From an uncultured Anaerolineales bacterium (GTDB taxonomy: Bacteria; Chloroflexota; Anaerolineae; Anaerolineales; UBA11858), in assembly GCA_964419495.1 (NCBI GenBank), contig CAYQQX010000006.1, positions 486 through 64,485 of the forward strand: a stretch of 64,000 nt of DNA. The letters run 5' to 3'. Shown one piece after another: positions 3,188-63,072 of this stretch. The notes beneath the pieces were generated by a model. That model worked only from the letters and a program-made list of their open reading frames with translations, did not search any database and was not told where the DNA came from. Position 1 is the stretch's first letter. Every line of letters begins with the position of its first letter. A program made the translations under genes and the position numbers.

Positions 3188-4578
3188 TGACGATAAAAAT
3201 CTACAACACTCTCTCTAGAAAAAAAGAAGAATTTGAAACCTTAGAACCTCATAAGGCCTCCATGTATGTCTGTGGCCCTACTGTTTATGATAAGGCGCAT
3301 GTTGGCCATGCTATGTCGGTTTTGGTGTTCGATATTATCCGTCGTTACTTGGAATACCGTGGCTACGAAGTCACGCACGCAATGAATTACACAGACGTAG
3401 ACGACAAGATCATCAACCGCGCCAATATCGAGAATATTGATCCTTTTGAATTAGCCGAAAGATATATACAAGAATTTCGAGAGCATTTGGATGATCTAAA
3501 TGTTCTGCCGGCAACCATCTATCCACGCGCTACCGAAGAAATCGGCCATATTATTGAAATGGTTCAAGGCTTGATCGAGAAAGGTAACGCCTATGAGTCT
3601 GAAGGTGACGTTTATTTCTTCGTCAGCAGTGATGATGATTATGGAAAACTCTCAGGCCGAAAATTGGAAGATATGCAATCAGGTTTCCGCATTGATGTGG
3701 ATGATCGTAAAGAAACCCCTATGGATTTCGCTTTGTGGAAATCTTCTAAGTCCGGCGAACCTGCCTGGGATAGCCCTTGGGGACAAGGTCGCCCCGGCTG
3801 GCATATCGAATGCTCTGCGATGAGTTATTACCATCTCGGCGAGCAGATTGATATTCATGGGGGTGGGAATGATCTTGTTTTCCCGCATCATGAGAATGAA
3901 ATCGCCCAGACCGAGAGCCTGACTGGCAAGCCCTTTGCCCGTTATTGGGTTCACAATGGTATGCTTCAATTAGCTGGCGAGAAGATGTCCAAATCGCTGG
4001 GTAATTTGGTGACCGTTGAAGATTTCCTTGAAGATAACGACGCTGATGTGCTGCGCATGTTGGTGCTTAACTCCAGCTACCGCAGCCCGCTGAAATTCAG
4101 TGATGAAACCGTAGGGCACGCCAAGAAAGCCATCGAGCGTTTGCGCTCTGCCCTGCGCCCCGCAGCTCAAGGAGCCACAGGCGAGATGCCTGAATCGCTG
4201 GAAGCGCAAATTGCAGCCACACGCCAGGGGTTCGAAGAATCCATGGCTGATGACTTCAATACCGCAGGCGCCTTGGGGTATCTCTTTGAACTGGTGCGTG
4301 CCATCAATCACGCGCGGGATAAGGGTGCTGGTCCCGAAGCTTTGGCTGAGGCCCAGAATCTGATTCTGGAGTTTACGGGCATCATGGGCTTGACGTTGGA
4401 GCACGTAGTGACCAGTGCTGGTGAGGCCGCCCCATTTGTGGACCTGCTCATTGAGGTGCGCACCGAATTACGCAACCAAAAGCTTTGGGCACTCACCGAT
4501 AAGATCCGTGACACCCTGGCCGAACTGGGCGTCGTGATCGAAGATGGCAAGGACGGCACCACCTGGAGATGGAGTTAG
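3187..4578 (+). CDS. cysS: cysteine--tRNA ligase
   Basis: Class I signatures HVGH and KMSKS are present, together with CGPTVYD and GWHIECSAM motifs. Length is 463 aa. Confidence 0.96.
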
Positions 4579-5578: not shown

Positions 5579-5650
5579 GCCGACGTAGCTCAACGGTAGA
5601 GCAGCCGCCTTGTAAGCGGCAGGTTATGGGTTCGATTCCCATCGTCGGCT
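5579..5650 (+). tRNA. tRNA-Thr: tRNA-Thr (UGU)
   Basis: GCCGACGTAGCTCAACGGTAGAGCAGCCGCCTTGTAAGCGGCAGGTTATGGGTTCGATTCCCATCGTCGGCT. The anticodon loop is CTTGTAA. Confidence 0.92.
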
Positions 5651-5718
5651 CCTGTTGATAGTTGGCGATCAATGCTTACGCAAGTGGCCTTGATCTCGAA
5701 CTGGCAACAGTCTCGTGC

Positions 5719-5801
5719 GGGCGGATACCCAAGTGGCCAAAGGGAGCTGACTGTAAATCAGTTGTCAAACGACTTCGGCGGTTCGAATCCGTCTCCGCCC
5801 A
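5719..5801 (+). tRNA. tRNA-Tyr: tRNA-Tyr (GUA), long variable arm
   Basis: GGGCGGATACCCAAGTGGCCAAAGGGAGCTGACTGTAAATCAGT...GGCGGTTCGAATCCGTCTCCGCCCA. The anticodon loop is CTGTAAA and the extra arm is 14 nt. Confidence 0.9.
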
Positions 5802-5862
5802 CCTGCACTCGCTGATCGGTACAGACCATGTGCTTATCAGCGGGTAGTTATGTAAGAGACTA

Positions 5863-5935
<73 letters not shown>

Positions 5936-5993
5936 CTTCTCAAAGTTTTGTAAGAACCGTAAGGTTGAATTTATTATCGAGGAGATAGTAAAC

Positions 5994-7196
5994 ATGGCAA
6001 AGGAAACATTTGTAAGAGACAAACCGCACTTGAATGTTGGCACCATGGGGCACATTGACCATGGTAAGACGACGTTGACTGCGGCGATCACGAAGTACTG
6101 TGCGCTGGCAGGGCAGGCTGAATTTCGTGCCTTTGACACGATCGACAATGCCCCCGAAGAGCGCGAACGTGGTATCACGATCAATATTGCGCACGTGGAA
6201 TACGAGACGGAGAATCGTCACTACGCCCACGTGGACATGCCTGGACACCGTGACTACATCAAGAACATGATCACGGGTGCAGCGCAGGTTGATGGAGCGA
6301 TCTTGGTAGTGGCAGCTCCCGATGGAGCGATGCCGCAGACGAGAGAGCACGTGTTGTTGGCTCGCCAGGTGGAAGTGCCCAGCATCGTTGTGTACCTGAA
6401 CAAGGTCGACATGATGGACGATCCTGAGCTGTTGGAACTGGTGGAGCTGGAACTGCGCGAGTTGCTGGACGAGTACGGCTTCCCTGGGGATGAGATTCCC
6501 ATTGTGAAGGGCAGTGCCTTAGCGGCCTTGGAGAGCGACAGCATGGATGCGAATGCTGAAGAGTATGAGAGCATCAAAGAACTCTTGCGAGTGGTGGATG
6601 AGTACATCCCCGAGCCTGAGCGCGAGCTGGACAAGCCGTTCATGATGCCGGTTGAGGATGTGTTCTCGATCAAGGGTCGCGGCACAGTTGTGACCGGTCG
6701 TATCGAGCGCGGTGTGGTGAAGGTTGGCGAGGCTGCGGATATCGTTGGATTGCAGGATGAGATCGGCGCCACGACCATCACCGGTGTGGAGATGTTCCAC
6801 AAGCTGTTGGATCAGGGTCAGGCAGGAGACAACGTTGGGTTGCTGCTGCGAGGCGTTGACCGAGACGACGTAGAGCGAGGCATGGTGATTGCCAAGAAAG
6901 GCAGCATCGAGCCGCACACAAAGTTCAATGCACAGGTATATGTGTTGAAAGCTGATGAAGGTGGACGACACAAGCCGTTCTTCCCTGGGTATCGACCGCA
7001 GTTCTACATCAAGACGATTGATGTGACGGGTGCGATCGAGCTGCCTGAGGGCGTAGAGATGGTCATGCCTGGAGACGATGTGAACATGGTAGTTGAATTG
7101 ATAGTGCCGGTAGCTTTGGAGCAGGGACAGAACTTCGCCATCCGCGAAGGCGGCCTGACCGTTGGTGCTGGTGTTGTCACCAAAATCATTGAGTAG
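5994..7196 (+). CDS. tuf: elongation factor Tu
   Basis: [18 protein letters not shown] and NKVD G-domain motifs. Full-length 400 aa. Confidence 0.98.
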
Positions 7197-7203
7197 GTAA
7201 ATA

Positions 7204-7371
7204 ATGGCTGGTAAGAAAGGTATTCGTCACGTTGTGACTATGTCTTGCACCGAGTGCAAGGAAAGAAATTACCTGACGGAGAAAAATCGCCGTAATGACT
7301 CCGGTAGGCTGGAGTTAAACAAATTCTGTCGGCGCTGTCGCAAGCATACGTTGCACCGCGAGGTGAGGTAG
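7204..7371 (+). CDS. rpmG: 50S ribosomal protein L33
   Basis: Own translation: [55 protein letters not shown]. It has a CxxC...CxxC zinc ribbon and sits in the canonical position before secE. At 55 aa it falls below the ORF-track cutoff. Confidence 0.93.
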
Positions 7372-7443
7372 TAGTCTGATAGTCAAATGGTCTGGTAGTC
7401 AAATCACACACAATACGACTAACATCAAGTGACTATCAGACTA
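7372..7443 (+). other. long hairpin between rpmG and tRNA-Trp
   Basis: tagtctgatagtca (7372-7385) is perfectly complementary to tgactatcagacta (7430-7443). Internally there are 14-nt direct repeats tctgatagtcaaat and tctggtagtcaaat. Confidence 0.65.
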
Positions 7444-7447
7444 ATGA

Positions 7448-7526
<79 letters not shown>

Positions 7527-10048: not shown

Positions 10049-10187
10049 TATAATTCCGCCGTTCATAAACACTTCGCCAAAGACAGCAGGTGCTTTTGCC
10101 CTTCGACATTGCTCAGGGTTACAGCTTAATTTCCTGCCGAGGTGAGGCTTGATGCCCATAATCGGGCAATTCCTGATGGAAAATTGA

Positions 10188-10219
10188 GTCTTTACCTCGT
10201 TGCGAGGTAAAGACTTTTT
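10188..10219 (+). terminator. intrinsic terminator/attenuator between rplA and rplJ
   Basis: A perfect 12-bp stem GTCTTTACCTCG-TTG-CGAGGTAAAGAC is followed by TTTTT. Confidence 0.7.
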
Positions 10220-10222
10220 GCG

Positions 10223-10385
10223 TAAGAGAGCGTCCCTTTGGGTGTCCGTTCGCTCTCTTACCACTCCGACGCATGAGCGTCGGAGCTAGGCGTAGGTGTC
10301 ATATCGCCATACCGCCACTCCGGTTCAGGAGAACCGGAGTACAAAATTTCTAATAGCAAACTCTCGAAGAAAGGAGGACGTTTCT
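10223..10385 (+). promoter_or_regulatory. structured rplJ 5' leader (candidate L10(L12)4 autoregulatory leader)
   Basis: Three perfect 9-bp hairpins are present: AAGAGAGCG...CGCTCTCTT, CTCCGACGC-ATGA-GCGTCGGAG and CTCCGGTTC-AGGA-GAACCGGAG. The region ends at the SD AAAGGAGG. The position matches known L10 leaders, but the fold was not compared with a covariance model. Confidence 0.45.
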
Positions 10386-57819: not shown

Positions 57820-58866
57820 TTAGATTAACTCCTGCGCAACCAACAATTCAGCATTTTGCAGTGACCCTCCGGCCGCACCTTTGACGGTGTTGTGGGAAAG
57901 CACGATATATCGTAAATCAAAGATCGGGTCTGGGCGTACGCGGCCTATGACGGTGGTCATGCCATTTCCAGCATCTCGGTCGCGGCGTGGTTGAGGGCGG
58001 TTAGGTTCGCGACGTACTTTGATGGTCCGCAGGGGGGAGCTGGGTAAAGCGCGCACCACCTCGGGAGGCAGGAAAGACTCCCATACAGCGATAGCCTCTT
58101 CTGGGGTAGCCGATTTTTCTAATTCAATCGAAACACAAACGGTATGTCCATCTACAACCGGGACGCGATTGGTATGGGCCGAGATAGGTATGTTTGTATA
58201 GTCGATGTGATCATCCTTCAATTTTCCGAGCATTTTATTCGGCTCATCTTCGAGTTTCTTTTCTTCTCCCCCAATATAGGGCACAACGTTATCAAGTAGA
58301 TCTAGAGAAGGCACACCGGGATACCCGGCCCCGGATAGCGCTTGCATTGAGACAGCAAAGATACGTTTGACGCTAAAGGCATCGAATAAGGGTTTGAGTG
58401 CTACAGTGAACCCAGTGGATGTGCAGTTGCAACTAGTCACGATGCAACCGCTCCAGGCGCGTTTTTTGCGTTGCGCTTCGATGAGGTAGGCGTGTTCGGG
58501 GTTTACTTCAGGGATGATCAGGGGCACATCTTCTGTCATGCGGTAGGATGATGCGTTCGAGAAAACCTGGTAACCGGCTTGAGCAAAAGTGGGTTCTAGT
58601 TCTTTCGCCAAGCCAGAAGGCAGGGCGCTGAATACTATTTCTGCATCCAAGTTAGCTTTGGTTTCTAATACGGGCATGTCTTTGGCCCATTCGGGCATGT
58701 CTCCAGGAATTACCCAGCGGCAGCCATCTATGTAACTGCCGCCTATCGTGCGGTCTGAGCCGGTCAGGGCTGTGACTTCGAACCAAGGATGACCACTTAG
58801 CAATTGTACAAATCTCTGCCCAACGGTACCGGTGGCGCCTAGGATAGCTACGTTTCGTTTTTGCAT
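57820..58866 (-). CDS. asd: aspartate-semialdehyde dehydrogenase
   Basis: VAILGATGTVGQRF (NADP binding) and the active-site SCNCTSTG. Confidence 0.95.
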   Translation of the reverse strand: MQKRNVAILGATGTVGQRFVQLLSGHPWFEVTALTGSDRTIGGSYIDGCRWVIPGDMPEWAKDMPVLETKANLDAEIVFSALPSGLAKELEPTFAQAGYQVFSNASSYRMTEDVPLIIPEVNPEHAYLIEAQRKKRAWSGCIVTSCNCTSTGFTVALKPLFDAFSVKRIFAVSMQALSGAGYPGVPSLDLLDNVVPYIGGEEKKLEDEPNKMLGKLKDDHIDYTNIPISAHTNRVPVVDGHTVCVSIELEKSATPEEAIAVWESFLPPEVVRALPSSPLRTIKVRREPNRPQPRRDRDAGNGMTTVIGRVRPDPIFDLRYIVLSHNTVKGAAGGSLQNAELLVAQELI

Positions 58867-58912: not shown

Positions 58913-60328
58913 TCATTTTATGATCAGCTTGTGGATTGAACGAATGCTTTCGTCTACATCTGATGCAGCTACAACCATGCTAATGCTGACTTCTGATGAG
59001 CCTTGTGCAATAGCGATTACATTGATCCCGGTATCCCCCAGGGCGCTGAAAATACGCCCGGCGATACCGGGGGTGTGACGCATTCCTACACCCACAGCAG
59101 TTACAATGACCACATTTTCCATTGCCCAAATGTGATCGATATCTTGGCGTCCCAACTCAGCTTGGAACTCACTTTTTAACGAGGAAATCACTACAGCGGT
59201 AGCTGATGAAGGCAGTGTGAAGCAGATGCTTTGTTCTGAAGATGCCTGGGATATCAAAGACACGCTGGTATCTGTTCGGGCTACCGCGCTGAATGCGCGA
59301 CCGGCGATTCCTTGTACACCGATCATGCCGCGCCCTTCAATGGTGATCAGGGATTGATTTTTTATCGCAGTAACAGCGCGAATATTGCCAACGACATTCT
59401 TGTTTTGATCGTTATTGGCAATTATTTGCGTGGCAGGTCCTTGTGGGTTAAAGGTGTTTTTGATCCACAAAGAGATATCTTGTTCGATGACGGGACGGAT
59501 TGTCTTGGGATGGAGCACTTTTGCTCCGAAATAGGCAAGCTCAGATATTTCCCTGTAAGTGACAGTTTCGAGGGTGCGGGCATTAGGAACCAAGCGTGGA
59601 TCGGAGGTCATCACGCCATCTACATCAGTCCAGATCCATACTTCATCTGCATTAAGAGCGGTACCAATAATCGCTGCACTGAAATCACTGCCGCCGCGCC
59701 CCAATGTTGTTGTGACGCCATCTTCGGTTGAACCAACGAAACCAGTTATGACCGGCAGAATCCTATCTTCTAAAAGGGGTTCCAATCGTGATTGACAAAG
59801 ATCTCTTGTCGATTCTATATCGGGGTAAGCAGATTGAAAAACAGCATCCGTACGGATAAGTTTGCTGGCATGTACACCCTCAGCAGTGCAGCCCGTTTCC
59901 CTCAGGTATGCGGCCAGTAAGGGCATAGACATGGTTTCCCCTAAGGATGAGATGGCATCCAATGCTTTAGGGGAGAGTTCGTTTAGCACACGGATTGCCT
60001 GACATAGATTGAGAAATTCGTTGACCTTTTCCTCTATGATGGCATGGATGCATTTCTTTTCGTCGGGTGATTCCAATAGCTCTGAAATTGCAGAGAAGTG
60101 TTTTTGGCGGATTTTTTCTGCCAACTTAGTGTAGCGCGCAGTCTGATTATCGGAGGCTGCATAAGCCCCTTTGATGAGCATATCTGTCACACCGCTCATG
60201 GCTGAAACGACCGCTAAAATACGTACCCAATTATCCCGGGCTTCCAGAATAACAGCAGCTGCTTGCCTGATTGCGATGGCATCACCCATTGATGTCCCCC
60301 CAAATTTCATTACCAGTGTTTTTTGCAT
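58913..60328 (-). CDS. lysC: aspartate kinase (monofunctional, two ACT domains)
   Basis: LVMKFGGTSMGDA, TLGRGGSDFSAA and VWIWTDVDGVMTSDPR, with C-terminal ACT repeats. The ATG at 60328 follows AGGAGC. Confidence 0.95.
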   Translation of the reverse strand: MQKTLVMKFGGTSMGDAIAIRQAAAVILEARDNWVRILAVVSAMSGVTDMLIKGAYAASDNQTARYTKLAEKIRQKHFSAISELLESPDEKKCIHAIIEEKVNEFLNLCQAIRVLNELSPKALDAISSLGETMSMPLLAAYLRETGCTAEGVHASKLIRTDAVFQSAYPDIESTRDLCQSRLEPLLEDRILPVITGFVGSTEDGVTTTLGRGGSDFSAAIIGTALNADEVWIWTDVDGVMTSDPRLVPNARTLETVTYREISELAYFGAKVLHPKTIRPVIEQDISLWIKNTFNPQGPATQIIANNDQNKNVVGNIRAVTAIKNQSLITIEGRGMIGVQGIAGRAFSAVARTDTSVSLISQASSEQSICFTLPSSATAVVISSLKSEFQAELGRQDIDHIWAMENVVIVTAVGVGMRHTPGIAGRIFSALGDTGINVIAIAQGSSEVSISMVVAASDVDESIRSIHKLIIK

Positions 60329-60372
60329 GTCGTTGCTCCTTTCAAATTGCAAGATAACAAATGTGCAGAATC

Positions 60373-60400
60373 AAAAACGCGAAGCCGTTGGCTTCGCGCT
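60373..60400 (-). terminator. attenuator terminator 44 nt upstream of lysC
   Basis: Minus strand reads CGCGAAGCC-AAC-GGCTTCGCG followed by TTTTT. Confidence 0.75.
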
Positions 60401-60425
60401 GGGTAAACAAAACTAAAAAAACTAC

Positions 60426-60506
60426 TTAACCACTCTGAAGCAACGGCGGAGGGATCTCCGGCATTGTAGTCATCATTGTAGTGGTAGTAGTTTTTTGCTT
60501 CAACAT
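60426..60506 (-). CDS. candidate leader peptide MLKQKTTTTTMMTTMPEIPPPLLQSG
   Basis: Own translation. 7 Thr and 3 internal Met codons lie within codons 6-15. Its 3' part is complementary to the 5' half of the terminator. Confidence 0.6.
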   Translation of the reverse strand: MLKQKTTTTTMMTTMPEIPPPLLQSG

Positions 60507-60521
60507 AAATTTATTCTGGGG

Positions 60522-60550
60522 ATGGTAGCATAGCATCCAGAAGGAGTCAA
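60522..60550 (-). promoter_or_regulatory. candidate promoter of the lysC leader
   Basis: Minus strand reads TTGACT-17 nt-TGcTACCAT, ending about 15 nt before the leader ATG. Confidence 0.4.
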
Positions 60551-60566
60551 CCGGAAGATATCTGCG

Positions 60567-62867
60567 CTACGGCAGCAATACGGTAGGACTAACTTTATCG
60601 AAATAGATCATAGCGTCAAAGGTTTTGAGTAGATCGAGTTCGATGAAATAGTCTTCGGCCAGGGCAGGAGCATACTGGCTGCCGATCAGGCGTGTAGGGA
60701 TCGGCTCGGCCAACCATTCAAAGCCAAGCTCTTGGGTGTTGGATTGATCAAGAAAAAGTATGAAGGCAGGATAACCCGCATAATGGGCAAGCCACTCAAA
60801 GCTTTGGTTTGGTGTTGGTGGAACGCTGATCGCTTCAAGTTGCGGAGGCTCAACGCAGGTATTGAGAGCCACAATCTCACCCGACCCAAAACTGAATCCG
60901 ATCGAAAATGGTTCTTCTCCAATAATGGGTCGAATGAGTCTACCCATGGTAAATTGATAGAAGTAGATTTGGTGTTGCGTGTTTGTGATCCCAAGGGTCG
61001 AATTTCGCCCCCATAAAAGAAATTTGGCGCCATCTCCACGCTGCTGAACGACCCAACGTAGATTTTCCTCGATGAACAGTATTACGGAATTATAGGCCCT
61101 GTAGGCCTCTTCTGCTTGCTGAACGCCCCGCATGGTTTTGAGAGCGAGAGTAAATTCCTGCTGAGAAGATGCTGCTGTGTAGCTTTCCTGGCGGTTGCTG
61201 ATGAAATCATAGGCCTGCTGGATATTGTCCCGGCATTCCCCCCTCGAACTGAGATAGGCGTATGCGTATTCGCCCCAATCATCTTCAAAACTCCGGAAGC
61301 AGGCAAAGAGTTTTTCCATTCGCTCTCTTTGTTCTGGATCGACCCGTTCTAGATAAGCAAGCACTTCATCCATTGACTGGGATGGATTAGGGATCATCAC
61401 CCCAAAAACGCGGATGGTTGGGGAATCTCCGGGGTTCTGATTGTGCGCTCGCAATCCTTCGATCAAGTTGAGGGCTTCCTGACTTCCCCAGCGCGGGTCT
61501 GGGAATTCTGCCAGGACCTGGGCGGGATCGCCCTCCCCAGTGAGGAGATATTCATCTAATTTAAGTCCCAGCAGCCAGTCGATATCGAAGATTAGGGTGT
61601 CAAAGCCCTTTTCTGTCACCAGGGAATTAATGAGTTCTTTCTGAATTTGGAGAGATTCGTTAACTCCAACAAAAGGATTGCCGATATCAACTGAGCGCGC
61701 CTCCCCAATGCTTTCAACCAAGAGTGCAAGAGCTGTGTTCTCTGACGCTGATTTGGCAATATCCAGGGGAATAGCATTCTTTTGCATCCATGAGACGATT
61801 TCTGGGTCGGGAGCAGGTAGAAAGCCACTCTCCTCTGGCTCGAAGGAGATCGATATGGATGATATATCTGGTTCAGTTGGCTGCCAGGCTGGGAAGCCAT
61901 CGAAGTTGTAGTGATCTGTCAATTGAGTTAATTCAGAGCTGTCGGATCGCATGGTGAAAATTTCGTAGTTGCCTTCTCTCATCGAGTAGAAAGCGATCCG
62001 TTCACCGTCGGGTGACCAGGTTGGATAGGTATCTTTATCAACCTGGTATGTTAGGCGGTGAGGGTTTGAGCCGTCGGCGTTCATGACATATATTTCTTCA
62101 TTGCCGTCCCGGTCAGAAACGAAAGCGATTTGTGATCCATCTGGCGACCAGGCTGGGTCAACATCGCTGGCAGGGTGTTGAGTTAGATTGCGCTGCCCCG
62201 AGCCATCCGGGTTCATGATGAAGATCTCATTATTCTCTCCCACATCAGATCGATATAAGATCTTGCTCCCATCGGGTGACCACTTTGGCGAGCTGTTCCA
62301 AATATGATTGCCATTGTGATGATCTTGAGTTAACTGCATACGTCTGGAGCCGTTGGTGCCCATTACCCAGATATGCATAATTCCCGAACGATTGGAAGTA
62401 AAAGCGATCTGGGTTCCGTCTGGAGACCAATCCGGTTCGACGTCCAGAGCGCTCGAGTGCGTCAGGCGGACCAGAGAAGGAACGGGATTCTCAACTTGGT
62501 TTTTGTTCAACGGCATCACCATGATTTCCGAATTGATGCCGTCAAAGCGCTGAACGAAGGCGACCCACTGCCCATCGGGGGACCAGGCTGGCTGATTGAC
62601 CCGCTCTTCTATGTCGGTCAGGCGAGTGATGTTAGAGCCATCAGCGCTCATGGTATAAAGCTCTGATTCGCCATCGCGATAGGATGAGAAAAGGATTAGA
62701 TCGCTTGGGGCATTGGTGGATGCAGACACTGTGGTTGGAATCGATGTTGGTTGGGCAGTGATGTCTGGGGTGGTGGTTGCTGTACCCTGGGTTTGACATG
62801 CCCCCAGTGAAAGGGCCAATAATGATAGCCAAAAGATGAATACCAATCCCTTAGGTTTTTTAGACAT
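60567..62867 (-). CDS. lipoprotein: TolB-like beta-propeller fused to an erythromycin-esterase/ChaN-like C-terminal domain
   Basis: LSLGAC lipobox and a Thr-rich linker. About 6 PD40 repeats (SPDGxxIAF...). The C-terminal half (...KGFDTLIFDIDW...) resembles the EreA family, but the usual GExxHG reads GNPFVG. The ATG at 62867 is preferred. Confidence 0.7.
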   Translation of the reverse strand: MSKKPKGLVFIFWLSLLALSLGACQTQGTATTTPDITAQPTSIPTTVSASTNAPSDLILFSSYRDGESELYTMSADGSNITRLTDIEERVNQPAWSPDGQWVAFVQRFDGINSEIMVMPLNKNQVENPVPSLVRLTHSSALDVEPDWSPDGTQIAFTSNRSGIMHIWVMGTNGSRRMQLTQDHHNGNHIWNSSPKWSPDGSKILYRSDVGENNEIFIMNPDGSGQRNLTQHPASDVDPAWSPDGSQIAFVSDRDGNEEIYVMNADGSNPHRLTYQVDKDTYPTWSPDGERIAFYSMREGNYEIFTMRSDSSELTQLTDHYNFDGFPAWQPTEPDISSISISFEPEESGFLPAPDPEIVSWMQKNAIPLDIAKSASENTALALLVESIGEARSVDIGNPFVGVNESLQIQKELINSLVTEKGFDTLIFDIDWLLGLKLDEYLLTGEGDPAQVLAEFPDPRWGSQEALNLIEGLRAHNQNPGDSPTIRVFGVMIPNPSQSMDEVLAYLERVDPEQRERMEKLFACFRSFEDDWGEYAYAYLSSRGECRDNIQQAYDFISNRQESYTAASSQQEFTLALKTMRGVQQAEEAYRAYNSVILFIEENLRWVVQQRGDGAKFLLWGRNSTLGITNTQHQIYFYQFTMGRLIRPIIGEEPFSIGFSFGSGEIVALNTCVEPPQLEAISVPPTPNQSFEWLAHYAGYPAFILFLDQSNTQELGFEWLAEPIPTRLIGSQYAPALAEDYFIELDLLKTFDAMIYFDKVSPTVLLP

Positions 62868-63072
62868 GATGTTACCCTTTGAACTTCCTTGGTGTTCAGA
62901 TAATGCAGATTTTGCGCTGCCTAGAAGTATATTGCATATTGCAATCACTAAACCAGGATTATATAGGTTTTCCCAGGATAATCGCCTATAGAGTTGGCAG
63001 AGAATAACTTCACAAATAAGTTGTCATTCCGAGTGATGTAGATGCCAAGTACCTAAATGCGATTACCCTGTA

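What the first reader, a model, noticed from the sequence alone, without database searches (positions are those of the whole stretch)
60373..60550. Thr/Met-rich leader peptide with mutually exclusive antiterminator and terminator upstream of aspartate kinase-asd
On the minus strand, 60506..60426 encodes MLKQKTTTTTMMTTMPEIPPPLLQSG*. It has 7 Thr and 3 internal Met codons packed into codons 6-15. A 9-bp GC-rich hairpin CGCGAAGCC-AAC-GGCUUCGCG plus UUUUU (60400..60373) lies 25 nt after its stop. The lysC ATG is 44 nt further on. Leader codons 20-23 (GCCGUUG-CUUC) are complementary to GAAGC(C)CAACGGC, which is the 5' arm, loop and start of the 3' arm of the terminator. That gives 7+4 bp with one bulge. 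A ribosome reaching the stop would mask this segment and let the terminator form. A ribosome stalled at the Thr/Met run would leave it free to antiterminate. Aspartate kinase and Asd are the common trunk for Thr, Met and Lys synthesis, so the codon choice fits the pathway, as with E. coli thrL. A PPP motif lies just before the pairing segment and might add EF-P dependence. I know of no description of such a peptide attenuator for lysC in this kind of organism. lysC is usually under an L-box riboswitch or T-box control.
Basis: partly seen in the sequence, partly recalled or inferred. Interest (0 to 1): 0.8.

Follow-up and report, generated by a model that had tools for sequence, protein, structure and literature searches.

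The report
Threonine/methionine leader-peptide attenuator of ask-asd
A tiny, unannotated gene rich in threonine and methionine codons sits in front of the aspartate kinase operon of this Anaerolineales bacterium and, with a switchable RNA terminator, most likely lets the cell turn the operon up when those two amino acids run short; it uses a classical mechanism that I did not find reported for this phylum.

Summary
The 26-codon ORF (60506..60426, minus strand) has 10 consecutive Thr/Met codons. An 11-bp terminator plus U5 follows at 60400..60373. An 11-bp alternative pairing links ORF codons 20-24 to the terminator's 5' arm and loop. No Rfam family matches.

Twenty-four related Anaerolineales genomes carry a short ORF with a Thr/Met run, a terminator and a matching antiterminator segment in front of the same ask-asd operon. 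Their sequences differ widely. Each ORF segment pairs better with its own terminator than with foreign ones (-19.5 vs -13.2 kcal/mol, 25/25 loci). Folding with a ribosome footprint gives the antiterminator only when the ribosome sits on the Thr/Met run.

Orthologous genes in other Chloroflexota carry a SAM-I riboswitch or a probably Thr-specific T-box instead, which fits the proposed signals.

A conserved anti-antiterminator hairpin is present. A conserved promoter lies 10-16 nt upstream of a start codon with no Shine-Dalgarno sequence, so the transcript is nearly leaderless.

One idea fails: the PPP/EF-P motif is not conserved.

Verdict: a classical ribosome-mediated attenuator and a new variant in an unstudied phylum.

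The parts
60522..60550 (-). Promoter-like site: TTGACT (60550..60545), 17-nt spacer, TG-extended TACCAT (60527..60522). The -10 box ends 15 nt before the leader ATG, so the 5' UTR is predicted to be only about 8-9 nt.
   Evidence: One search found the consensus match. One search found a TTGAC(A/T/G)-16/18-TAnnAT pair 10-18 nt upstream of the leader ATG in 22 of the 25 attenuator loci compared; the best pair is 29-32 nt upstream in L007 and L016, and the best-scoring -10 hexamer in L008 (GATACC) is not of that form. The function and the transcription start are inferred, not shown.
60426..60506 (-). Leader ORF of 26 codons plus TAA: MLKQKTTTTTMMTTMPEIPPPLLQSG. It has no Shine-Dalgarno sequence.
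   Evidence: Equivalent ORFs of 24-33 codons occur in 24 related loci. An SD-like motif precedes 1 of 25 leader ATGs, against 23 of 25 ask starts. No gene is called here in the public annotation.
60462..60491 (-). Regulatory codons 6-15: seven Thr (ACU x4, ACC, ACA x2) and three Met codons. This is the proposed stall site.
   Evidence: Over the 25 leaders Thr is 22.8% and Met 9.1% of residues, against 6.5% and 2.3% in the window's ask+asd. All four Thr codons are used.
60409..60501 (-). Anti-antiterminator (1:2) structure of the untranslated leader. The outer helix pairs the Thr codons AAAAAACUACUACCACU with AGUGGUUAAGUAGUUUUUU around the stop codon. The inner hairpin is CAAUGCCGGAG (60466..60456) with CUCCGCCGUUG (60451..60441), at -11.4 kcal/mol. 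Together they sequester segment 2.
   Evidence: The consensus fold of the five closest relatives keeps 28 pairs. Family B has an analogous CCUC:GAGG helix.
60437..60447 (-). Segment 2, GCCGUUGCUUC: the 5' strand of the antiterminator, inside codons 20-24 and 9 nt before the stop codon.
60384..60395 (-). Segment 3, GAAGCCAACGGC: the terminator 5' arm, the loop and the first 3 nt of the 3' arm. It is the partner of segment 2 in the antiterminator.
   Evidence: duplex -15.5 kcal/mol; conformer -20.2 kcal/mol, z = -2.6.
60373..60400 (-). Intrinsic terminator: an 11-bp stem (9 G/C-rich pairs plus A-U and G-U), a 3-nt loop and U5.
   Evidence: hairpin -16.2 kcal/mol. The sequence is unique in the window.
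58913..60328 (-). ask: monofunctional aspartate kinase of 471 aa (AA_kinase plus two ACT domains), with SD AGGAG at 60340..60336.
   Evidence: Pfam; TIGR00657 above its cut-off; scores closer to the ThrA-type than to the LysC-type model.
57820..58866 (-). asd: aspartate-semialdehyde dehydrogenase of 348 aa, the second and last gene of the operon. The next gene is convergent.
   Evidence: TIGR00978. The ask-asd pair is kept in every leader-bearing locus that extends far enough.

Best explanation
This is a ribosome-mediated (leader-peptide) transcription attenuator of the ask-asd operon. It senses the charging of tRNA-Thr and elongator tRNA-Met.

Proposed sequence of events:

1. Transcription starts a few nucleotides upstream of the leader AUG, from a conserved sigma-70-type promoter. 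The 26-codon leader is translated without a Shine-Dalgarno sequence.
2. When Thr and Met are plentiful, the ribosome runs through codons 6-15 and covers segment 2 (codons 20-24) while RNA polymerase makes the terminator. The 11-bp hairpin plus U5 forms and transcription stops at about 60373, 44 nt before ask.
3. When Thr-tRNA or Met-tRNA is scarce, the ribosome stalls in the run. This melts the anti-antiterminator that pairs the Thr codons and CAAUGCCGGAG with the segment 2 region, and leaves segment 2 just outside the ribosome's 3' edge.
4. Segment 2 then pairs with the terminator's 5' arm and loop as soon as they emerge. The terminator cannot form, and ask-asd is transcribed.
5. With no translation at all, the 1:2 structure holds segment 2 and termination is the default.

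Shown here by computation: the sequence elements, their energies, their mutual exclusivity, their geometry relative to a 30-nt footprint, and their conservation and co-variation in 24 other genomes.

Inferred, not shown: the transcription start, translation of the ORF, termination in vivo, and the response to Thr/Met.
For: **Anatomy.** establish the elements and their energies.

**Switch simulation in the window.** One search folded a transcript truncated just after segment 3. The full 11-bp antiterminator forms only with the ribosomal A site on codons 4-14. It never forms at codons 15 to stop, and never in free RNA.

**Conservation.** The window plus 24 loci from different Anaerolineales MAG species (aspartate kinase 51-78% identical) all have three things: an ATG ORF of 24-33 codons with a Thr/Met run, a terminator 20-45 nt after its stop, and a segment between the run and the stop (overlapping the stop in L005) that is complementary to that locus's own terminator 5' arm. 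L023 is the one locus where no clear segment stands out (z = -0.5).

**The terminators differ and the ORF segment follows them.**
- Window: CGCGAAGCC-AAC with GCCGUUGCUUC.
- L004: CGCGGAGCC-GGC with GCCGCUG..CUUUGCGU.
- L016: CGCGGAGC-AAAG with AGCC.UUGCUUCGUG.
- L014: CGCCUCACG with CCGUGAGGC.
- L019: CGCCUCGCG with CCGCGAGGCG.

**Swap test.** Own terminator -19.5 kcal/mol against -13.2 for foreign terminators. Own was better in 25 of 25 loci, Wilcoxon p = 6e-8. The loci are related, so this p-value overstates independence.

**Column counts in family B.** The terminator pair is GC:7 AU:6. The matching antiterminator pair is UA:6 UG:4 CG:3, with no mismatch.

**Geometry.** The last codon at which a stalled ribosome still allows the antiterminator lies at a median of 0 codons from the end of the Thr/Met run, and within -1 to +3 codons in 21 of 25 loci. 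With RNA behind the ribosome blocked, 0 of 25 loci form the antiterminator with the ribosome at the stop.

**Coding signature.** All four Thr codons are used (ACU 54, ACC 65, ACA 15, ACG 14). The order of Thr and Met varies between loci while the residue set stays the same.

**The element travels with ask-asd, not with the upstream gene.** The upstream 793-aa gene is shared by only 4 loci. The promoter is conserved 10-16 nt before the leader ATG.

**Sensor replacement.** Orthologous ask genes carry a SAM-I riboswitch in L009, L010, L012 and L031, at 81-88 bits. L026 carries a T-box at 101 bits in front of ask-asd. I read its specifier as ACC (Thr), followed by A. Its UGGA bulge fits the U73 discriminator of both tRNA-Thr genes in the window.

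**Same logic elsewhere in the phylum.** A Roseiflexaceae locus has a leader MNTCIQMTTTKTTTTRTMTG... plus a terminator before thrC-ask-GNAT-asd.
Against: - Nothing experimental is available: no transcription start, no 3' ends, no ribosome profiling.
- The leader ATG has no Shine-Dalgarno sequence. Translation therefore depends on near-leaderless initiation, which has not been demonstrated for this organism.
- At equilibrium the terminator always wins. The model therefore needs kinetic control and transcription-translation coupling, as in E. coli trp. Neither has been studied in Chloroflexota as far as I know.
- In family B, which does not include the window, segment 2 lies 11-24 nt before the stop. 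When only the footprint is blocked, the antiterminator can re-form once the ribosome reaches the stop (10 of 25 loci).
- The anti-antiterminator is not universal. In 17 of 25 loci the free truncated RNA forms the antiterminator.
- Column-wise covariation inside each subfamily is thin, with one covarying position in family B and none among the five closest relatives.
- A second consensus-level promoter match (TTGAAG-17-TACAAT, 60503..60475) lies inside the ORF.
- Lysine also depends on ask-asd and has no codon run here.
Confidence: 0.85

Rival explanations
1. The hairpin is simply the terminator of the upstream PD40/erythromycin-esterase-like gene (60567..62948). The short ORF and its complementarity to the hairpin are chance.
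For: The upstream gene is on the same strand and ends 167 nt before the hairpin. An ORF of 26 codons is not rare by itself.
Against: The ORF-plus-terminator unit stays with ask-asd in 20 loci that have different upstream genes. A conserved promoter lies between the upstream gene and the ORF. The Thr/Met-ORF-plus-terminator pattern was found nowhere else in about 1 Mb scanned. The complementarity tracks each locus's own terminator.
Confidence: 0.02
2. The leader is an untranslated RNA switch. The ACN/AUG-rich stretch would be a binding site for a protein, a small RNA or a ligand that decides between the antiterminator and the terminator, and the reading frame would be incidental.
For: There is no Shine-Dalgarno sequence before the ATG. 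In the window the Thr codons form a long helix with the stop-codon region, so an RNA-level constraint on that stretch does exist.
Against: - The frame is open from an ATG at a fixed distance from the promoter to a stop just past segment 2, or overlapping it in L005, in 25 of 25 loci, despite many length differences.
- The residue set {Thr, Met} is kept while codons and their order change.
- The end of the run coincides with the last footprint position that permits the antiterminator.
- No Rfam family matches.
- The sensors that replace it in other lineages report Thr-tRNA and SAM.
Confidence: 0.06
3. The ORF is translated and senses Thr/Met, but the output is not intrinsic termination. It could be control of ask translation or mRNA stability, or the peptide could have a function of its own.
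For: Some attenuators use sequestration of the ribosome-binding site instead of a terminator (general point stated in PMC9413887). Leaderless Cys-rich short ORFs in mycobacteria regulate downstream genes (bioRxiv 10.1101/834739).
Against: A canonical G/C-rich hairpin plus U5-U7 is present in every locus. The ask SD lies 33 nt beyond the U-tract and takes no part in the predicted structures. Outside the Thr/Met run the peptide sequence is not conserved between subfamilies, which argues against a peptide function.
Confidence: 0.05

Closest known systems
E. coli thrL, the thr operon attenuator (Rfam Thr_leader RF00506)
   Same: A short leader ORF with a run of codons for the pathway's products, alternative antiterminator and terminator hairpins, and control of an aspartate kinase gene (thrA) at the head of the threonine branch. 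This description of thrL is from my own knowledge.
   Different: There is no sequence or structure match: RF00506 does not appear even at E<=10. The regulatory codons are Thr+Met, not Thr+Ile; Ile is only 1.7% of leader residues. The regulated genes are a monofunctional ask plus asd, not thrABC. The start codon has no Shine-Dalgarno sequence and sits close to the promoter. The phylum is Chloroflexota.
Predicted thrA attenuator of Pasteurellales with Thr, Ile and Met codons (Vitreschak et al., FEMS Microbiol Lett 2004; recalled from memory, the paper is not held)
   Same: A precedent for one leader peptide combining Thr and Met codons in front of the sole aspartate kinase of the Thr/Met branch.
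   Different: It is a proteobacterial element and a relative of thrL, it includes Ile, and it has a bifunctional thrA. I could not re-read the paper, so this comparison is a lead, not a test.
E. coli trpL, the three-hairpin attenuator (1:2, 2:3, 3:4)
   Same: The window element has all three structures. The 1:2 structure imposes termination when the leader is not translated (free RNA gives 0 antiterminator pairs). As in trp, the terminator is more stable than the antiterminator, so the choice must be kinetic (the trp energies are from my own knowledge).
   Different: The amino acids, sequence and phylum all differ. The 1:2 element is not universal among the relatives.
Leaderless polycysteine short ORFs of mycobacteria (bioRxiv 10.1101/834739)
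   Same: An unannotated short ORF at or near the 5' end of the mRNA, without a Shine-Dalgarno sequence. It has a run of codons for one amino acid and controls downstream biosynthetic genes.
   Different: Leaderless status is only inferred here, from promoter spacing. The window's predicted UTR is about 8-9 nt rather than 0. Here a canonical intrinsic terminator with an antiterminator is present.
Lysine riboswitch (L-box), T-box and SAM-I riboswitch control of aspartate kinase genes
   Same: The same regulatory position and the same output (a terminator in the 5' leader). SAM-I and T-box elements actually replace the leader peptide at orthologous ask genes in other Chloroflexota. Such switching of sensors between lineages is a documented pattern (PMC2965389).
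   Different: None of these RNAs is present in the window. Here the sensor is the translating ribosome.

Membership tests
Ribosome-mediated (leader-peptide) transcription attenuators | A short ORF upstream of a biosynthetic operon, with clustered codons for the pathway's end product(s) | tested here: met
   Ten consecutive Thr/Met codons in a 26-codon ORF before ask-asd. The same holds in 24 relatives.
Ribosome-mediated (leader-peptide) transcription attenuators | An intrinsic terminator between the leader ORF and the first structural gene | tested here: met
   An 11-bp stem plus U5 at 60400..60373. Present in all relatives.
Ribosome-mediated (leader-peptide) transcription attenuators | An antiterminator that shares bases with the terminator and is mutually exclusive with it | tested here: met
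   GCCGUUGCUUC pairs with GAAG(C)CAACGGC at -15.5 kcal/mol. Complementarity to each locus's own terminator holds in 25 of 25 loci.
Ribosome-mediated (leader-peptide) transcription attenuators | Geometry: a ribosome on the regulatory codons frees the antiterminator strand, and a ribosome further on masks it | tested here: met
   Footprint-constrained folding. This is clean in the window's subfamily. In family B, 10 of 25 loci re-expose the strand when the ribosome is at the stop.
Ribosome-mediated (leader-peptide) transcription attenuators | The ORF is translated, and premature termination responds to supply of the amino acid | not testable with these tools
   No transcript, ribosome-profiling or reporter data are available. 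The lack of a Shine-Dalgarno sequence makes this the weakest link.
Rfam Thr_leader (RF00506, enterobacterial thrL) | A match to the covariance model | tested here: not met
   No hit at E<=10 in 60250..60700, and none at gathering score in the window.
Lysine riboswitch / T-box / SAM-I riboswitch | A match to the covariance model in the ask leader | tested here: not met
   No hit in the window. The same search finds SAM-I in L009, L010, L012 and L031 and a T-box in L026, so the method works on these genomes.
Leaderless short-ORF attenuators | The mRNA 5' end lies at or within a few nucleotides of the start codon | tested here: inconclusive
   The -10 box ends 10-16 nt before the ATG in most loci, and an SD-like motif is present in only 1 of 25. 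The transcription start itself is not known.

The most novel reading that the evidence does not exclude
Chloroflexota (Anaerolineales, and at least one Roseiflexaceae) possess their own family of leader-peptide attenuators. The family evolved independently and starts translation without a Shine-Dalgarno sequence on a nearly leaderless mRNA. It reads two amino acids at once (Thr and Met) to control the common trunk enzymes ask-asd. It is interchangeable in evolution with a SAM-I riboswitch and a Thr T-box at the same gene. If it functions, it would be the first evidence for ribosome-RNA polymerase coupling used for regulation in this phylum. It would also be a natural case in which near-leaderless initiation is fast enough to drive attenuation.
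Probability: 0.6. Interest if true: 0.6.

Novelty: new variant of a known kind. Interest (0 to 1): 0.5.

Why it matters
Leader-peptide attenuation is a textbook mechanism, but it is documented mainly in Proteobacteria, with further cases in Actinobacteria and Firmicutes. A survey based on Rfam found the amino-acid attenuator motifs concentrated in gamma-proteobacteria (PMC3766115; see also PMC2965389).

Chloroflexota are abundant in sludge, sediments and soils and have few cultured representatives, which makes this case useful in three ways:

- **Regulation.** A conserved Thr/Met attenuator shows how these organisms regulate entry into the aspartate family. It points to Thr and Met, not Lys, as the signals that set ask-asd transcription.
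- **Annotation.** It adds an unannotated translated ORF to genome annotation.
- **Evolution.** It gives a clean natural series in which one gene is controlled by a ribosome sensor, a tRNA sensor or a metabolite sensor. That series can be used to study how sensors are swapped on a fixed terminator platform.

The start codon close to the promoter and lacking a Shine-Dalgarno sequence also makes the element a compact test case for leaderless-type initiation coupled to transcription.

Tried and rejected
- **Rfam.** The permissive scan of the region and the gathering-score scan of the window found nothing relevant. The best hits were snoRNA models at E=0.2, which is noise.
- **Equilibrium folding with a ribosome footprint.** On the full-length leader the terminator always forms. 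This is uninformative for a kinetic switch, so I replaced it with truncated-transcript folding.
- **First multi-locus simulation.** Counting any pairing of the terminator arm was too noisy. I replaced it with region-specific counts.
- **Column-based covariation in the window's wider subfamily.** Alignment A1 could not be used. The antiterminator register shifts between loci, with the bulge on either strand and the loop included or not. I therefore used an alignment-free own-versus-foreign duplex test.
- **Column counts in family B.** These work but show only one covarying position.
- **PPP/EF-P.** Not conserved.
- **Repeat or mobile element.** The terminator sequence is unique in the window.
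- **Other leader-peptide-like attenuators in the 64-kb window.** None is convincing.
- **Second promoter-like site inside the ORF (60503..60475).** I judge it a by-product of the codons TTG AAG ... ACT ACA ATG. It is absent from family B, whereas the upstream promoter is conserved.
- **Literature.** Seven searches found no description of a Thr/Met leader peptide or any leader-peptide attenuator in Chloroflexi or Anaerolineae. The Vitreschak 2004 paper could not be opened.
- **T-box specifier.** I first read the T-box specifier in the wrong loop (Stem II). I corrected this using the Rfam alignment. AAC (Asn) remains a less likely reading of the specifier.
Full report
**1. The observation.**
Reading the minus strand confirms every stated element.
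- ATG at 60506, then 26 codons (MLKQKTTTTTMMTTMPEIPPPLLQSG), then TAA at 60428..60426.
- Codons 6-15 are ACT ACT ACC ACT ACA ATG ATG ACT ACA ATG.
- Twenty-five nt after the stop comes a hairpin: core CGCGAAGCC-AAC-GGCUUCGCG at 60398..60378, 11 pairs counted from 60400, followed by UUUUU to 60373. The isolated hairpin has -16.2 kcal/mol.
- After 44 more nt, and preceded by AGGAG, comes the ATG (60328) of a 471-aa protein with an amino-acid-kinase domain and two ACT domains. A 348-aa aspartate-semialdehyde dehydrogenase follows.
- The next gene is convergent, so the operon is ask-asd.
- GCCGUUGCUUC (60447..60437) pairs with GAAG(C)CAACGGC (60395..60384) as 7+4 bp with one bulge, at -15.5 kcal/mol.
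- The terminator sequence is unique in the window.

**2. Not a known RNA family.**
A permissive Rfam scan of 60250..60700 (E<=10) gives only noise. A gathering-score scan of the whole window gives tRNAs and an L10 leader, nothing here. The same library does find a T-box and SAM-I riboswitches in related genomes, so the negative result is meaningful.

**3. Structures in the window.**
The free leader folds into two domains, -48.3 kcal/mol in total, z = -5.97.
- *Domain 1* is a long hairpin spanning almost the whole ORF. Its outer helix pairs the Thr codons (AAAAAACUACUACCACU) with AGUGGUUAAGUAGUUUUUU around the stop codon. Its inner helix is CAAUGCCGGAG/CUCCGCCGUUG at -11.4 kcal/mol. This domain sequesters segment 2.
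- *Domain 2* is the terminator.

The element is therefore of the three-structure type: 1:2 anti-antiterminator, 2:3 antiterminator, 3:4 terminator.

At equilibrium the terminator forms wherever a 30-nt ribosome footprint is placed. This is expected for a kinetic switch. In E. coli trp the terminator is also the more stable structure (my own knowledge).

I then folded the transcript as it exists when RNA polymerase has just made segment 3. The complete 11-bp antiterminator is the minimum-energy structure only when the A site lies on codons 4-14. It never forms with the A site on codons 15 to stop, and never in untranslated RNA. The isolated antiterminator conformer has -20.2 kcal/mol, z = -2.6.

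**4. Relatives.**
A search of one genome per GTDB species with the kinase returned 57 loci, mostly Anaerolineales MAGs. Their upstream regions fall into classes.
- *Leader-peptide class.* Twenty-four loci (kinase 51-78% identical), plus L011 and a truncated L018, have the window's architecture: a short ATG ORF with a Thr/Met run, a terminator, then ask-asd. Example peptides are MINHITTTTMMTTTTENPLPLLLCG, MNYKMIVTTTTTGMMGMAMTGKIPP, MINLSGATTTTMTTTTTPVGEAAA, MFCMSMSTTTMMTMTLFQEPLLRAKW, MKLHFTLTMCTMTMTGLNDQWPLLLRE and MNSAHFHMTMTTTTSGTHREAFVHGKK.
- *What is conserved in the peptides.* Only the Thr/Met run is shared by all subfamilies. Thr is 22.8% and Met 9.1% of leader residues, against 6.5% and 2.3% in ask+asd. 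All four Thr codons occur. Ile is 1.7%.
- *Upstream neighbour.* The upstream gene of the window is shared by only four loci, so the element belongs to ask-asd.
- *Specificity of the pattern.* A scan of all fetched DNA and the window (about 1 Mb counting both strands) for a Thr/Met-run ORF plus terminator hit only these positions. The one further hit is an element before thrC-ask-GNAT-asd in a Roseiflexaceae MAG (L037).

**5. The antiterminator co-evolves with the terminator.**
- There are 16 distinct strings for the terminator 5' arm plus loop.
- In 24 of 25 loci the best partner of that string within the ORF region lies between the run and the stop, or overlaps the stop in L005. L023 is unclear (z = -0.5).
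- The partner changes together with the terminator. Examples are the window, L004, L008, L016, L014 and L019.
- Pairing each locus's ORF 3' part with its own terminator gives -19.5 kcal/mol on average. Pairing with terminators that differ at 3 or more arm positions gives -13.2. Own is better in 25 of 25 loci, Wilcoxon p = 6e-8. The loci are phylogenetically related, so the p-value is generous. The window's subfamily A and the second subfamily B (L013-L029), however, share no arm sequence.
- In the family B alignment the only variable stem position covaries three ways. The terminator pair is GC:7/AU:6. The antiterminator pair is UA:6/UG:4/CG:3 with no C-A mismatch.
- RNAalifold independently predicts a 1:2 helix (CCUC of the ACC-UCC codons with GAGG of segment 2) plus the terminator for family B. 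For the window and its four closest relatives it predicts the large 1:2 structure plus the terminator.

**6. Geometry is conserved.**
- With everything at and behind the ribosome blocked, the antiterminator (8 or more pairs) forms at 90% of Thr/Met codons and in 0 of 25 loci with the ribosome at the stop.
- The last permissive codon lies a median of 0 codons from the end of the run, and within -1..+3 in 21 of 25 loci. The run thus occupies the last positions from which a stalled ribosome still leaves segment 2 free.
- With only the footprint blocked, the window's subfamily behaves the same. In family B, though, segment 2 re-emerges behind a ribosome at the stop (10 of 25 loci). In those loci the decision must be taken while the ribosome crosses segment 2, or the 1:2 helix must re-form behind it.

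**7. Start of the leader.**
A TTGAC(A/T/G)-17-TAnnAT pair is conserved, with the -10 box ending 10-16 nt before the leader ATG. In the window this is TTGACT-17-TG-TACCAT at 60550..60522. Only 1 of 25 leader ATGs has an SD-like motif within 18 nt, against 23 of 25 ask starts. The leader is therefore probably translated from a very short or absent 5' UTR. This resembles the leaderless Cys-rich regulatory ORFs of mycobacteria (bioRxiv 10.1101/834739). It is an inference, because no transcription start is known.

**8. Independent support for the signal.**
- In Promineifilaceae and related MAGs the orthologous ask is preceded by a SAM-I riboswitch (81-88 bits).
- In L026, ask-asd is preceded by a T-box (101 bits).
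- From the Rfam alignment the specifier loop reads GAA-A-ACC-A. I take ACC (Thr) as the specifier because it is followed by the usual purine. AAC (Asn) is the alternative reading.
- The T-box bulge UGGA would pair with a U73 discriminator, which both tRNA-Thr genes of the window have.
- So the three sensors found at this gene in the phylum report Thr-tRNA, Met-tRNA or the methionine product SAM.
- The kinase scores higher against the ThrA-type aspartokinase I model than against lysine-sensitive aspartokinase III (452 vs 380 bits). This fits a Thr/Met-branch role. "lysC" is a loose name for it.

**9. What does not hold.**
PPP is present only in the window, L002, L003 and L006. It coincides with CCUCCGCCG, which is needed for the 1:2 and 2:3 pairings, so an EF-P role is unsupported.

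**10. Comparison with what is known.**
Mechanistically this is a classical leader-peptide attenuator of the trp/thr type.
- It is not a member of Rfam Thr_leader.
- It differs from thrL in codon set (Met instead of Ile), regulated genes, mode of initiation and phylum.
- Exchange of sensors (T-box, riboswitch, leader peptide) at the same gene is a known pattern (PMC2965389).
- A survey of cis-regulatory RNAs that included five Chloroflexi genomes found the amino-acid attenuator motifs restricted to the four Rfam families, and suggested they may have originated in gamma-proteobacteria (PMC3766115).
- Seven full-text searches found no description of leader-peptide attenuation in Chloroflexi or Anaerolineae.
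- The public gene calls on the source contig have nothing at the leader.

**11. Verdict.**
- My confidence that this is a functional Thr/Met-sensing ribosome-mediated attenuator is about 0.85. The remaining doubt is the complete absence of experimental data and the unproven initiation without a Shine-Dalgarno sequence.
- Novelty: a new variant of a well-known kind.
- Interest is moderate (0.5). The case is solid and, as far as I could find, undescribed and conserved in many species of an important phylum, but a specialist would not find the mechanism surprising.

Noticed in passing
L037:2775-2920 (+), with genes to 6987: A Roseiflexaceae MAG has a Thr-rich ORF close to its promoter (MNTCIQMTTTKTTTTRTMTGVGDSSWRGGCT), followed by the terminator CCCCCCUCCC-AAAAC-GGGAGGGGGG-U5. 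It lies upstream of thrC-ask-GNAT-asd. The same attenuator logic therefore occurs in a second class (Chloroflexia) and with a different operon.
   Followed up: partly
L009:3807-3932, L010:3816-3928, L012:3826-3930, L031:3820-3931: SAM-I riboswitches (81-88 bits) sit directly upstream of the orthologous aspartate kinase in Promineifilaceae-type MAGs. TPP riboswitches lie just downstream of the kinase gene in L009, L010 and L012, and several kb downstream in L031. In these loci asd does not follow ask.
   Followed up: partly
L026:3722-3959: A T-box leader (101 bits) lies upstream of ask-asd. The specifier is read as ACC (Thr), with AAC as the alternative. Its UGGA bulge matches the U73 of the window's two tRNA-Thr genes (5579-5652 and 5863-5936).
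   Followed up: partly
L041, about 3830-3960, upstream of ask at 4001: An Anaerolineaceae MAG has a Met-rich short ORF (MNDLKGCLSSWMVAMMSMVMWGFIYRAALLDK) followed by a strong terminator before ask. It may be a Met-only attenuator. The complementarity to the terminator is not convincing (z = -1.6).
   Followed up: no
L044 and L052, about 150-250 nt upstream of the kinase match: Bacteroidota loci have an ORF ending ...NVVTVTATITATAIKSTPWWG, rich in Thr, Ile, Val and Ala, upstream of the aspartate kinase homologue. It looks like the Bacteroidetes-type thr leader. My simple scan found no canonical terminator.
   Followed up: no
L011, L019, L021, L028 and L017, L018, L024, L027: the spacer between terminator and ask SD: The spacer between the attenuator terminator and the ask ribosome-binding site is expanded in several loci by small palindromic inserts: cccctctcc...ggagagggg, or cagacttccgaagtctgag-like repeats. 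These may be miniature repeat elements that have landed in this spacer.
   Followed up: no
window 60475-60503 (-) and 60530-60536 (-): A second promoter-like match (TTGAAG-17-TACAAT) lies inside the leader ORF and is built from its codons. Two in-frame ATGs at 60536 and 60530 lie inside the predicted promoter. None of these is conserved in family B.
   Followed up: partly
L013 and L029: Two contigs of the same MAG (SJ708) each carry a near-identical leader (MNSYFNNH(K/Q)YGLCGMTMTTTSGTTREA(L/F)VVG) plus ask. This could be strain heterogeneity in the bin or a true duplication.
   Followed up: no
window 5579-7523 and 10059-10229 (+): A tRNA-Thr/Tyr/Thr cluster, with tRNA-Trp further downstream, and an L10 leader (RF00557, 55.5 bits) mark the usual tuf/secE-nusG-rplKAJL region. 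Both tRNA-Thr genes have a U73 discriminator.
   Followed up: partly
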